This document shows, piece by piece, positions 4,331 through 34,377 of a DNA stretch of 41,066 nucleotides. The stretch comes from a virus (lineage: Duplodnaviria > Caudoviricetes), in the IMG/VR virus record IMGVR_UViG_3300014201_000006, positions 1-41,066 of that record; one strand, given 5' to 3'. Position numbers and translations under genes: made by a program. Position 1 is the stretch's first letter; each line of letters begins with the position of its first letter. The notes under the pieces are model-generated. The model searched no databases and was not told the origin of the DNA. It saw only the letters and a program-made list of their open reading frames with translations.

Positions 4331-4687
4331 ATGGAAACAGGTTTTTTATTGCCACCACAAATAATTCAAAGGTTCAGCTCTTTGCTTTTATCAATGCCCG
4401 TTCCAAAAATGAGAGATGATTCTGAAACTTTATGGAATATGTATTCTTATATCAAAGACAAACTTGTGAAAAAAACTGCAAAACATCCTGAATGGGAAAA
4501 TAAATGTAAAAAATTAGAAAAATTATTTTTGGAGTTATATGAGCGGACATTGGCTAAAGAAAAAGACCTCAAAGAAAAGAAGACACACCATACTCAGCAA
4601 CCCTTCTATAGGTTTAGAGATCCTGATCAAAATAAGCGAAGATTATTTACAGGACTTAAATGCCGATCACGAGGTTTTAAATTATAA
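4331..4687 (+). CDS. hypothetical protein
   Basis: AAGGAG RBS, 118 aa. Confidence 0.55.
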   Translation: METGFLLPPQIIQRFSSLLLSMPVPKMRDDSETLWNMYSYIKDKLVKKTAKHPEWENKCKKLEKLFLELYERTLAKEKDLKEKKTHHTQQPFYRFRDPDQNKRRLFTGLKCRSRGFKL

Positions 4688-22897: not shown

Positions 22898-23133
22898 TAA
22901 ATTTATCCTTATGTATATCCCAAATTAACTAGCCCAGTTAACACCGCATGGCCTAAAAACCATGTGGGGGCCAGTCACTCGTTTGCCACGTTACAGCTTA
23001 TCGCAGGTATGCGTTAAATCCAATATTCGCTGAGATTGCGTTACATCTCAACCGATATGTCTGAGAACGGACCGTAATACGTCGTCGTCCACGGATCAGC
23101 CAATCACAAACATTCAACCTAAATAGGTTTGAA
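22891..23133 (+). promoter_or_regulatory. capsid promoter (TTGTCA-17-TATATC) and ~210-nt structured 5' leader
   Basis: Hairpins 22925-41, 22944-67 and 23031-50, plus TTCAACCT/AGGTTTGAA over the RBS. Confidence 0.6.
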
Positions 23134-25234: not shown

Positions 25235-25268
25235 TCAGCTTGTAAATAAAAGTTGATATATGCATTTT

Positions 25269-25305
25269 GAGGACGAGGGCTAAAAGACTCGTCCTCTTTT
25301 ATTTT
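25269..25305 (+). terminator. intrinsic terminator after the capsid genes
   Basis: GAGGACGAG/CTCGTCCTC 9-bp stem + TTTTATTTT. Confidence 0.85.
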
Positions 25306-31911: not shown

Positions 31912-32107
31912 ACTCCCCCTATGGACTTCATTTGACATTGCTAATCCTAAGCGAGGCGTAAATCTCATTATTAGGCTTAAAGATGGACGCGAATTAAAAG
32001 GTCAAAGTTGGCACACAGAGCTCATATTTGATGATGTTTTTTCCGATAAAATTGAAGGCGGACATTATGATCTTCAGATTCAGTCTACCCATTGGAAGTA
32101 CGCATGA
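31895..32107 (+). CDS. hypothetical protein
   Basis: Coupled to the next gene. Confidence 0.5.
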   Translation: MTTTTELPLWTSFDIANPKRGVNLIIRLKDGRELKGQSWHTELIFDDVFSDKIEGGHYDLQIQSTHWKYA

Positions 32108-32586
32108 CCACAACAACTAACCTCCAATTCTCACCCTATCTAAAGACCCAGTGGCAGTTTCCTAACGAGGATGTACGCGGTCTAGCTACCCAAATTGACA
32201 TCTCATACATCGACATCTCATCTAAGGTTAACGCCCGAACCATCGGAACATTTGCCACTAACTTTCCTCTAGTAACAGGAGAGCGCTGGTATCTCTCAGG
32301 ATCGTCCACAGGACAACAGACTTTGCGTCAGGTCTATCCTTTTACTGCTGCGGGTAATATAGCGCATGGGTTAAACTTCGCTGCCATAACCACGTTTACG
32401 AGGATCTATGGCGTATTTACAGATGGGAGTATCTATTATCCGCTGCCATATGTTGATGTTGTGGCTGCGAACAATCAGGTCAATGTGGTCGTTAATAGCG
32501 CGAATATTGTCGTGACTGCGGGAGGAGGAACTCCTCCAAGCATAACGAGTGGGTATGTTGTGCTGGAGTGGTTAAGCCAATTCTAA
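32104..32586 (+). CDS. tail accessory structural protein
   Basis: 'LRQVYPF...IAHGL...FTRIYG...YVVLEW'. Confidence 0.65.
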   Translation: MTTTTNLQFSPYLKTQWQFPNEDVRGLATQIDISYIDISSKVNARTIGTFATNFPLVTGERWYLSGSSTGQQTLRQVYPFTAAGNIAHGLNFAAITTFTRIYGVFTDGSIYYPLPYVDVVAANNQVNVVVNSANIVVTAGGGTPPSITSGYVVLEWLSQF

Positions 32587-32901: not shown

Positions 32902-32973
32902 CGCTCAATGAAGGAATCGAACCTTCGACACCCAAATTAACAGTTTGATGCTCTACCGCTGAGCTAATTGAGC
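32902..32973 (-). tRNA. trnN: tRNA-Asn(GTT), CCA not encoded
   Basis: GCTCAAT/ATTGAGC acceptor, TAGCTCAGCGGTAGAGC D arm, loop CTGTTAA, GGTTCGATTCC T arm. Confidence 0.93.
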
Positions 32974-32980
32974 AAAAAAA

Positions 32981-33104
32981 GAGCGAGGTCTATCCAGTTG
33001 CCTTTGTCTACAGGTCAGTAACATTTAGGGTTTTTAAGCCCAGTGCGCCTGCACGCTTGAGGGCCAACCTCACGGCTCCCTTCCTGGTTTACCAGACCTC
33101 ACTC
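32981..33104 (-). ncRNA. unassigned multi-stem structured RNA between two tRNAs
   Basis: 11-bp closing stem GAGTGAGGTCT/AGACCTCGCTC, several internal hairpins, followed by T7. Confidence 0.65.
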
Positions 33105-33107
33105 AAA

Positions 33108-33180
33108 TGCCGTCGCTAGGATTCGAACCCAGGACCTTCAAGTTACAAACATGTTGCTCTGCCAACTGAGCTACGACGGC
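33108..33180 (-). tRNA. trnT: tRNA-Thr(TGT) with mismatched anticodon stem
   Basis: GCCGTCG/CGACGGC acceptor, canonical D and T arms, loop TTTGTAA. Confidence 0.88.
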
Positions 33181-33287
33181 TTTCTATTAAGTTAATATTT
33201 GCCAGAAAAAAACACAAATGGCATACATAGAACTGTCCTATGTTGGTCTATTGTAAGTGCCCCCTGAACCGTAAGTAAGGGGGATTT

Positions 33288-33710
33288 TTATTTGTACTCC
33301 TTAAGATACTGCTCATAATCAATATGATTATATAGCATCCATTCTCTTATGTTCCTATAGCCAGTTACTTTTTCGAACAACTTTTCATTTCTAATGAATG
33401 GATATAGATACTGTCTCCTCGTCGCACGTAAAAATCTTAACCCACGTGCTTCCATGCAACGAATTCTTTCTTTGCAAATTCCCACCATTAGCGCTGCCTC
33501 ATGAAGCGTCTTTCTTTTTTCATTAAAAAGCCCAAATCGATGAATGATAGCAAATTTTGCTCCTGGTTCATTTGGTCCAAAACTTTCAATTAGATCCCAA
33601 TCATCTAAGTTCTCAGGAATTTGGAGATCAATAATGTCGATTGTGGGAAGTAATTCTCTATATTTTTCTCGTTGCTGCTCAAGATAATACGGTATTTTCT
33701 TTTCAAGCAT
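33288..33710 (-). CDS. stand-alone sigma70 region-4 HTH protein
   Basis: 'RFGLFNEKRKTLHEAALMVGICKERIRCMEARGLRFLR' aligns with RpoD region 4.2 (TLEEVG..F.VTRERIRQIEAKALRKLR). Confidence 0.8.
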   Translation of the reverse strand: MLEKKIPYYLEQQREKYRELLPTIDIIDLQIPENLDDWDLIESFGPNEPGAKFAIIHRFGLFNEKRKTLHEAALMVGICKERIRCMEARGLRFLRATRRQYLYPFIRNEKLFEKVTGYRNIREWMLYNHIDYEQYLKEYK

Positions 33711-33792: not shown

Positions 33793-34377
33793 ATGTCTGT
33801 ACCAGCTCTATCTAGAAACCAAGGCTCTACAGGAAACAAGATCCCAAAAGGCTATTCTTCAGGGCGGCTTCAACAATTTACTCCAGAACAAGTCGATGTT
33901 TTCAAAAATCAGATGTCTTTCGTGTCACCCGGGAGTCAGTTATCTCAAATGGCCCAAGGGAATGACTTAGGCTTTGCGCCCCATGAGGATTACGCTAGAC
34001 GGCAGTTTCAAGAAGCCACAAGCGGATTAGCTTCACAGTTCAGCGGTCTTGGTATGGGAGCTAGGCGTGGTAGCGGATTCCAGAATCAGGCTACACAAGG
34101 GGCTCAGGACTTCGCTAGTATGTTAGCTAGGCAGCGTCAGGGACTACAAAGACAGGCTTTAGGAGATTTGATGGGCCTGAGCAATTCAATTCTTGGTCAA
34201 AGACCTTATGAACAATTCCTTACTAAACAAGAACAGCCATTCTGGAAACAGCTATTGCTAGGAGCGACAAGTGGAGTATCTAATGCGGCTGGTTCGTTGT
34301 TTGGGGGTCTAATGCCTTGGAATAAACAACAGCAGCCACAACAGCAATCGGGCGGATTTCAGCCTGCCAGTTATTAG
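33793..34377 (+). CDS. DNA ejection/pilot protein
   Basis: Gln/Gly/Ala-rich, hydrophobic Gly-rich C-terminus; position after the nozzle. Confidence 0.65.
   Translation: MSVPALSRNQGSTGNKIPKGYSSGRLQQFTPEQVDVFKNQMSFVSPGSQLSQMAQGNDLGFAPHEDYARRQFQEATSGLASQFSGLGMGARRGSGFQNQATQGAQDFASMLARQRQGLQRQALGDLMGLSNSILGQRPYEQFLTKQEQPFWKQLLLGATSGVSNAAGSLFGGLMPWNKQQQPQQQSGGFQPASY

What the first reader, a model, noticed from the sequence alone, without database searches (positions are those of the whole stretch)
32974..33107. Unnamed ~125-nt multi-branched RNA sandwiched between two tRNAs
On the minus strand the spacer between tRNA-Thr and tRNA-Asn is almost entirely one fold. An 11-bp closing stem (one G-U) encloses CTGG-TAAA-CCAG (or the alternative CCAG/CTGG long-range pair), GAGG/CCTC, GTGC/GCAC, GGG/CCC and TAC/GTA hairpins, followed by U7. 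A promoter TTGTGT-17-TAACTT precedes tRNA-Thr, so normal tRNA processing would release it with defined ends, as for Y RNAs and other tRNA-linked phage ncRNAs. I cannot match it to SRP, 6S, tmRNA or RNase P. It lies directly downstream of the sigma region-4 gene on the same strand, so the two may form a protein-RNA module.
Basis: partly seen in the sequence, partly recalled or inferred. Interest (0 to 1): 0.8.

Follow-up and report, generated by a model that had tools for sequence, protein, structure and literature searches.

The report
Removable folded RNA between phage tRNAs
The gap between two tRNA genes of an uncultured phage holds a 124-base unit with complementary ends that other carriers of the same tRNA pair lack cleanly; it is likely cut out as a small stable RNA, possibly a decoy for host proteins, but it has no known relatives and its inner fold is unsupported.

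Summary
Between tRNA-Thr and tRNA-Asn of a complete 41-kb P22-like phage lies a 124-nt, GC-rich unit (32981-33104, minus strand) closed by an 11-12-bp stem and followed by T7. Such an end stem occurs in 15 of 100,000 shuffles. New evidence: contigs from three other studies carry the same two tRNAs joined by only 2 nt, skipping exactly this unit. It is therefore a discrete in/out cassette whose edges match the fold. No Rfam family and no homologue were found, so covariation could not be tested. Y RNA, retron, HDV-like ribozyme, SRP, 6S, RNase P and tmRNA tests were not met. Nothing beyond adjacency links it to the sigma region-4 gene. Best reading (0.45): a T4 RNAC/RNAD-like small RNA released by tRNA processing; a decoy role is a weak inference. 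Rivals are a MITE-like insertion (0.2) and a long-loop terminator (0.15). It is a real but orphan example of a common, uncharacterised kind.

The parts
33108..33180 (-). tRNA-Thr(TGT), no encoded CCA; anticodon stem has 2 of 5 mismatches
   Evidence: ARAGORN; Rfam RF00005 64.2 bits with alignment
33105..33107 (-). TTT linker between tRNA-Thr and the unit
   Evidence: sequence
32981..33104 (-). 124-nt GC-rich closed-stem unit (candidate small RNA)
33093..33104 (-). closing stem P1, 5' strand
   Evidence: pair probabilities 0.96-1.0, last pair 0.71
32981..32992 (-). closing stem P1, 3' strand
   Evidence: shuffle test
33084..33087 (-). P2 5' strand CCAG, predicted to pair with CTGG at 32994-32997
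   Evidence: p about 0.93; no covariation available
32974..32980 (-). T7 tract after P1 (possible terminator tail, or leader of pre-tRNA-Asn)
   Evidence: sequence
32974..33105 (.). 132-nt segment absent in other carriers of the same tRNA pair (placement ambiguous by 2 nt)
   Evidence: joint 32973/33106 in contigs of runs X7, X8, X9
32902..32973 (-). tRNA-Asn(GTT)
   Evidence: Rfam RF00005 70.4 bits; ARAGORN
33189..33217 (-). weak promoter-like site, 6 of 12 consensus matches
   Evidence: sequence
33288..33710 (-). 140-aa protein with a weak sigma-70 region-4 helix-turn-helix match; neighbour only, no link shown
   Evidence: Pfam PF04545 E 0.0012, 18.8 bits, under the 24.1 cut-off; ESM Atlas 0.93; phmmer

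Best explanation
The spacer is a discrete 124-base unit with complementary ends that other carriers of this tRNA pair lack, and it is likely co-transcribed with the tRNAs and cut out by tRNA-processing enzymes as a small stable RNA that possibly acts as a decoy for a host RNA-binding or tRNA-cleaving protein. Shown: the two tRNAs, the complementary ends and the T7 tract, the clean presence/absence of the unit, and the lack of any catalogued family. Inferred from established tRNA biology (own knowledge): 3' processing after the CCA-less tRNA-Thr frees the 5' end; RNase P at tRNA-Asn, or termination in U7, makes the 3' end; the closing stem would then shield both ends from exonucleases. Weakly inferred: the decoy role (about 0.15 even if the RNA is real), by analogy with phage tRNA cassettes as counter-defence cargo. 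It would work like T4 RNAC/RNAD: an accessory RNA riding in a tRNA slot.
For: End stem of 12 bp at the exact spacer ends in 15 of 100,000 shuffles; a closed stem of 11 bp or more plus U tract over 85-180 nt was found only here and at one other place in 1.67 Mb of this phage and its relatives. 3 of 8 runs laid (X7, X8, X9; three studies; 62-74 nt on the shorter side) carry both tRNAs joined by 2 nt. The removed segment coincides with the fold plus its T linkers. Relatives link tandem tRNAs by 2-3 nt in 6 of 7 pairs; the seventh (L116) has a 147-nt spacer. Near-identical copies of the spacer occur in runs X5 and X6 of another study (0 and 2 differences over the pieces laid), so it is no assembly error. 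Both mismatches in the stem are G-U on the tRNA strand. GC 54% against 36% in the flanks. [quoted passage not shown]
Against: No homologue was found, so there is no covariation and no sign of selection. The interior is no more stable than shuffles. The plus strand folds as well. It is missing from 90 related phage records and from three carriers of the same tRNA pair, so it is dispensable. The promoter is weak. Nothing tests the decoy role. The L116 spacer does not fold better than shuffles (z -0.23) and is not homologous.
Confidence: 0.45

Rival explanations
1. A MITE-like palindromic DNA insertion. The stem is its terminal inverted repeat; it landed between two tRNAs, where tRNA processing would excise it harmlessly, and it has no function as RNA.
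For: Size and an 11-12-bp inverted repeat fit the MITE definition (50-800 bp, repeats of 10-15 bp or more, 2-10-bp duplications; MITEs occur in phages: PMC11602168, passages). Empty alleles exist and TT stands at both ends. The interior is unstructured and both strands fold. A second, 51-nt palindromic insertion in this phage shares a 12-base loop motif.
Against: Relative to the TT duplication the inverted repeat is not terminal: 1 extra T on the left and 5 on the right. One copy in the phage. No copy in 401 genomes of the phylum of a Chlamydiia bin or 41 genomes of another order, though the host is unknown. The edges coincide with a tRNA-sized slot.
Confidence: 0.2
2. The closing stem plus U7 acts mainly as an intrinsic terminator with a 100-nt folded loop, ending or damping transcription after tRNA-Thr and lowering tRNA-Asn output.
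For: A GC-rich helix abuts U7 directly. The stem forms in folds of the precursor up to the U tract without disturbing tRNA-Thr. A short-loop hairpin of similar look, followed by T's, lies at window 25267-25299.
Against: The loop is far longer than in canonical terminators, and the scan found no terminator here. Before the 3' arm is complete, alternative folds compete. Empty alleles keep Thr and Asn together without it. It is not exclusive with the best explanation: termination could define the RNA's 3' end.
Confidence: 0.15
3. A neutral or decaying fragment captured from another genome (for example part of a larger structured RNA), with no present function.
For: Orphan status; interior at shuffle level; it sits in a variable slot where relatives carry anything from under 120 nt to 2.5 kb.
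Against: An intact 11-12-bp end stem at the exact edges is unlikely for a random fragment; no parent sequence was found.
Confidence: 0.1
4. The RNA and the upstream sigma region-4 protein form a protein-RNA module, for instance a 6S-like promoter mimic.
For: Same strand, 107 nt from gene end to tRNA-Thr, with no minus-strand terminator found between them. The region-4 assignment has modest support. Both are absent from 16 related loci.
Against: A tRNA lies between them. The protein has no region-2 match and no close relatives (1 hit, itself; 35 distant hits without context), so co-occurrence rests on one case. The RNA lacks the long duplex with a central bubble of 6S (shape recalled) and has no 6S hit in Rfam.
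Confidence: 0.05
5. A highly diverged member of a known family (ribozyme, Y RNA, SRP, 6S) below detection.
For: Position next to tRNAs is shared with theta ribozymes and Y RNAs.
Against: No Rfam match; key motifs absent; no TROVE or reverse-transcriptase gene in the phage.
Confidence: 0.05

Closest known systems
Phage T4 RNAC and RNAD
   Same: Small non-tRNA RNAs from a phage tRNA region with unknown role (PMC3014915; PMC9697503); similar size (recalled, 120-140 nt).
   Different: No sequence match to any GenBank phage over the unit; here expression is not shown, the unit is an in/out cassette in a two-tRNA cluster, and it has no T-loop motif.
GOLLD and ROOL RNAs
   Same: Phage and prophage RNAs often near tRNA islands, function unknown (PMC12286853, passages).
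   Different: They are several hundred nucleotides long and supported by covariation; this unit is 124 nt, orphan, with no Rfam match.
Bacterial Y RNAs (YrlA, Yrn1/Yrn2)
   Same: 5' and 3' ends pair into a long stem; Yrn2 is made in a precursor with a tRNA (PMC4201824, passages).
   Different: No GNCGAAN0-1G motif or T loop; no Ro60/TROVE gene in the phage.
Theta (minimal HDV-like) ribozymes
   Same: A G lies within 5 nt of a phage tRNA 3' end, as at their cleavage site (PMC10879173, passages).
   Different: No nested double-pseudoknot or J4/2 match with my descriptor (not validated on a positive control); no Rfam ribozyme hit.
Prokaryotic and phage MITEs
   Same: Size, inverted ends, empty allele.
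   Different: The inverted repeat is not flush with the duplicated TT; single copy; no family found.

Membership tests
Any Rfam 15 family (incl. SRP, 6S, RNase P, tmRNA, riboswitches, small ribozymes) | Covariance-model match at the family's gathering score | tested here: not met
   only the two tRNAs; nothing credible over the spacer at E <= 10
T4 RNAC/RNAD-like tRNA-cluster small RNA (functional kind) | Lies within a phage tRNA cluster, same strand, non-coding | tested here: met
   stops in all six frames
T4 RNAC/RNAD-like tRNA-cluster small RNA (functional kind) | Accumulates as a discrete stable RNA | not testable with these tools
   Needs infected-cell RNA; only DNA contigs were available
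T4 RNAC/RNAD (as homologues) | Sequence homology | tested here: not met
   blastn against 50,697 phage records: one 25-nt hit at E 5
Y RNA (YrlA/Yrn) | GNCGAAN0-1G motif near the 5' end | tested here: not met
   motif as given in PMC4201824
Y RNA (YrlA/Yrn) | tRNA-like D/T module | tested here: not met
   No T-loop motif; no YrlA hit
Y RNA (YrlA/Yrn) | Ro60 (TROVE) gene within 4 kb | tested here: not met
   0 of 1 genome; control rang in 2 of 14 genomes
Theta / HDV-like ribozyme | G1 within 5 nt of the tRNA 3' end | tested here: met
   G at 33104, 3 nt after the tRNA-Thr discriminator; uninformative alone
Theta / HDV-like ribozyme | Nested double pseudoknot with catalytic C in J4/2 | tested here: inconclusive
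   0 hits on either strand with my own descriptor, which had no positive control; no Rfam HDV-type hit
Retron msr-msd | Linked reverse transcriptase gene | tested here: not met
   0 of 1 genome for PF00078; control rang in 3 of 14
Retron msr-msd | Long msd hairpin inside terminal inverted repeats (recalled) | tested here: not met
   No perfectly paired inner stem over 9 bp among stems listed; none long in the predicted fold
MITE | Terminal inverted repeats of 10-15 bp or more, size 50-800 bp | tested here: met
   11-12 bp, imperfect; 124 bp
MITE | Target-site duplication flush with the repeats | tested here: inconclusive
   TT is on both sides, but 1 and 5 extra T's separate it from the repeats; homopolymers can slip
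MITE | Family of copies in a host genome | tested here: inconclusive
   None in the genomes searched; host unknown
Intrinsic terminator | Short GC-rich hairpin (loop 3-8) followed by a U tract | tested here: not met
   Loop is 100 nt; scan found none; long-loop termination untested

The most novel reading that the evidence does not exclude
The unit belongs to an undescribed class of small mobile RNA cassettes that enter tRNA-tRNA junctions as safe havens, where tRNA processing releases them as free RNA. It shares a hairpin-loop signature (GGCYUAAAAACC) with a second lineage-specific palindromic insertion in this phage's capsid leader, which would mark a common mobilising or binding protein.
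Probability: 0.08. Interest if true: 0.75.

Novelty: new member of a known kind. Interest (0 to 1): 0.37.

Why it matters
Small non-tRNA RNAs in phage tRNA clusters have been known since T4 and still have no assigned role. This case is minimal, one unit between two tRNAs, and has natural 'with' and 'without' alleles of the same tRNA pair. That makes processing, termination and effects on tRNA output directly testable with a 280-nt construct. Its value is capped by the lack of homologues, expression data and a known host, and by how common such spacers already are in this scan (136 earlier findings share these search words).

Tried and rejected
Homologue searches, all negative apart from copies of this same phage. 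IMG/VR patterns: 4 hits, 1 self, 3 unrelated; 1 self; 15 hits, 1 self; the other 14 scored at most 13.1 bits and had no tRNA. tRNA-end patterns found only self. Genome and metagenome two-part patterns gave 0 and 2 self hits. blastn in phages, plasmids and E. coli. DNA search of 16 related phage records (one 14-nt junction hit), 401 genomes of the phylum of G017 (7 short hits at E 0.02-0.04, chance level), 41 genomes of the order of G019, and the whole cassette in 140 of 141 genomes of the order of G018 (one not scored). A one-sequence covariance model (low sensitivity) gave 0 of 50 and 1 of 40 phage records (the hit lies inside a 419-aa ORF) and 1 of 150 cell genomes (E 0.045). Two of the 80 capsid loci (L130, L131, near-duplicates of L128/L129) were left out of the model search. 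An incidental 11.6-bit hit in L162 lies inside an ORF. Sequencing runs: no RNA holder listed, which says nothing about expression. Run X13 shows the pair with 85 other letters between, but only 27 nt lie on the shorter side, under the tool's 31-nt bar, and the letters were not shown: a hint only. X10 and X12 gave no bridging contig. Recalled short motifs for hammerhead, SRP, RNase P, group II D5, SAM, kink-turn, C/D box and c-di-GMP were absent; recalled likenesses to twister, pistol, cobalamin and ZTP RNAs were dropped for lack of any Rfam hit. No 11-mer of the unit matches elsewhere in the phage, so no antisense target. Host: unresolved. Capsid relatives lie in 11 bins of mixed taxa, 2 chlamydial, and in 4 of 301 genomes of that phylum; a relative's tRNA-Thr is 87% identical to one there (2 of 5 genomes matched, no broad control). 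Literature searches for a description of this RNA found none; the library lacks most subscription papers.

Full report
Setting. The window is a complete 41,066-bp virus record with direct terminal repeats. It has a P22-like portal, a terminase and a weak capsid match. The host is unresolved; chlamydiae are plausible but not shown. The finding lies in a variable slot between two conserved plus-strand genes (32092-32586 and 33793-34377). In 16 related loci this slot ranges from under 120 nt to about 2.5 kb; 4 of the 16 carry tRNAs there and none has a match to the sigma region-4 gene. Of 107 related loci, 26 carry tRNAs, mostly Asn and Thr.

What is in the sequence. On the minus strand: tRNA-Thr(TGT) 33180-33108, TTT, a 124-nt unit 33104-32981, T7, and tRNA-Asn(GTT) 32973-32902. 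The unit's ends pair in an 11-bp stem with one G-U, extendable by a 12th G-U pair. Such an end stem occurs in 15 of 100,000 dinucleotide shuffles and in 3 of 13,644 other sampled genome windows at 11 bp or more. A closed stem plus U tract of this size was found at only one other place in 1.67 Mb of related sequence. A second helix, CCAG/CUGG, is predicted at p about 0.93. The unit is GC-rich (54% against 36% in the flanks) and all six frames contain stops.

What does not hold. The interior is at shuffle level: z -0.14, 214 of 500; with the stem fixed, 277 of 500. The significance of the whole (z -2.3) thus comes from the end stem. The plus strand folds as well (z -3.1). The promoter matches 6 of 12 consensus bases, and 109 sites of that loose form exist in the genome. 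Many real RNAs also have unremarkable folding energy (own knowledge), so this weakens the drawn structure more than the existence of an RNA.

The new evidence. I laid 8 of 13 listed public runs on the region. Contigs of X7, X8 and X9, from three studies, carry the same two tRNAs joined by only 2 nt and skip 132 nt. tRNA-Thr is identical in all three; tRNA-Asn differs by 0, 1 and 9 letters; the shorter sides are 74, 62 and 72 nt; depths are low (6.9, 3.1, 2). Where flanks are shown (X7, X9) they differ from the window, so these are other genomes. X13 hints at a third allele with 85 other letters, the size of a long-arm tRNA, but its shorter side is only 27 nt. X5 and X6 (one study) hold near-identical pieces of the filled allele. 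In relatives, tandem tRNAs are linked by 2-3 nt in 6 of 7 pairs. The unit is therefore a clean in/out cassette whose edges match the fold plus T linkers. Gain is more parsimonious than loss, but the direction is not shown.

No family, no relatives. Rfam gives nothing over the unit. All homologue searches failed. The covariance model was built from a single sequence and is weak, so absence is not shown. Covariation could not be tested. Y RNA fails on the Ro-binding motif, the T loop and the Ro60 gene. Retron fails on the reverse transcriptase. An HDV-like fold was not found with an unvalidated descriptor.

The sigma region-4 neighbour. The 140-aa protein has a sub-threshold Pfam region-4 match, supported by the Atlas and by 35 distant phmmer hits. 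Word-based searches found only itself. A tRNA lies between it and the unit. Only adjacency supports a module.

Mechanism. Most likely (0.45) the unit is transcribed with the tRNAs. 3' processing of the CCA-less tRNA-Thr and RNase P cleavage at tRNA-Asn, or termination at U7, would release it, and the stem would clamp its ends (inferred from established tRNA processing; own knowledge). It would then work like T4 RNAC/RNAD, which come from the T4 tRNA region and have no known role (PMC3014915, one passage; PMC9697503, passages). For what it does, I commit to a decoy for a host RNA-binding or tRNA-cleaving protein, at about 0.15 if the RNA is real. The basis is only that it is dispensable cargo in a mobile tRNA cassette and that phage tRNAs are proposed counter-defence factors (PMC10264068 and PMC11555353, search listing and start of abstract). 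Rivals: MITE-like insertion 0.2 (PMC11602168, passages; the repeat is not flush with the TT duplication); long-loop terminator 0.15; neutral fragment 0.1; sigma-RNA module 0.05; diverged known family 0.05.

Comparison. It works like a phage tRNA-cluster small RNA. It is not a member of any catalogued family tested. GOLLD and ROOL share the tRNA-island context (PMC12286853, passages) but are far larger. Theta ribozymes share the position (PMC10879173, passages) but not, as far as tested, the fold. No supplementary files were read. Earlier notes of this scan describe many structured spacers between phage tRNAs (AI notes, not checked here); none matched this sequence.

A side lead. A 51-nt palindromic insertion in the capsid-gene leader (22928-22978), absent from three close relatives, shares the 12-mer GGCYTAAAAACC with the unit (33040-33029). 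The 12-mer occurs 0 times in 1.63 Mb of related loci; the local alignment score was reached by 33 of 2000 shuffles, found after the fact. This is the basis of the novel case (0.08).

Verdict. A real, discrete, closed-stem cassette in a tRNA slot with natural empty alleles; interior structure, expression and function unproven. New member of a known kind; interest 0.37.

Noticed in passing
window 22928-22978: 51-nt palindromic insertion in the conserved capsid-gene leader, absent in L059, L060 and L081; L057 has a different insert of similar size at the same site. Shares a 12-base loop motif with the tRNA-spacer unit. No Rfam hit; no copy in 201 cell genomes beyond one chance hit.
   Followed up: partly
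window 22979-23133: Capsid-gene 5' leader conserved in 4 close relatives, with variable hairpin inserts and a predicted shared fold; possible cis-regulatory RNA.
   Followed up: partly
L116:6873-7019 (-): Another related phage has a 147-nt spacer between tRNA-Asn and tRNA-Ile; no Rfam hit, z -0.23, not homologous to this unit.
   Followed up: partly
L121:1711-1872 (+), with similar stretches at L116:4185-4301 and 4431-4519: tRNA-like gene with D and T arms and a long insert in place of the anticodon arm, behind a degenerate tRNA-Thr; two related stretches in L116 (E about 1e-5). The weak YrlA hit there is likely the known tandem-tRNA artefact.
   Followed up: partly
window 33108-33180: tRNA-Thr(TGT) has 2 of 5 mismatches in its anticodon stem, yet is identical in contigs of several other studies; ACA is the commonest Thr codon in 15 phage genes (248 of 620).
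   Followed up: partly
window 33258-33288 (+): 6-bp GC hairpin with a 12-nt loop followed by T's on the plus strand, a likely terminator facing the sigma region-4 gene; a 31-nt near-identical copy occurs in another contig of run X10.
   Followed up: no
L089, L103, L114, L115 next to tRNA-Asn: tRNA-Asn genes directly follow ORF ends that look by eye like HNH-type or other endonuclease genes; possible homing-endonuclease transfer of tRNA cassettes (not scanned).
   Followed up: no
L035:7968-8043: tRNA with a TTA (ochre suppressor-type) anticodon called by ARAGORN in a contig with a related capsid gene.
   Followed up: no
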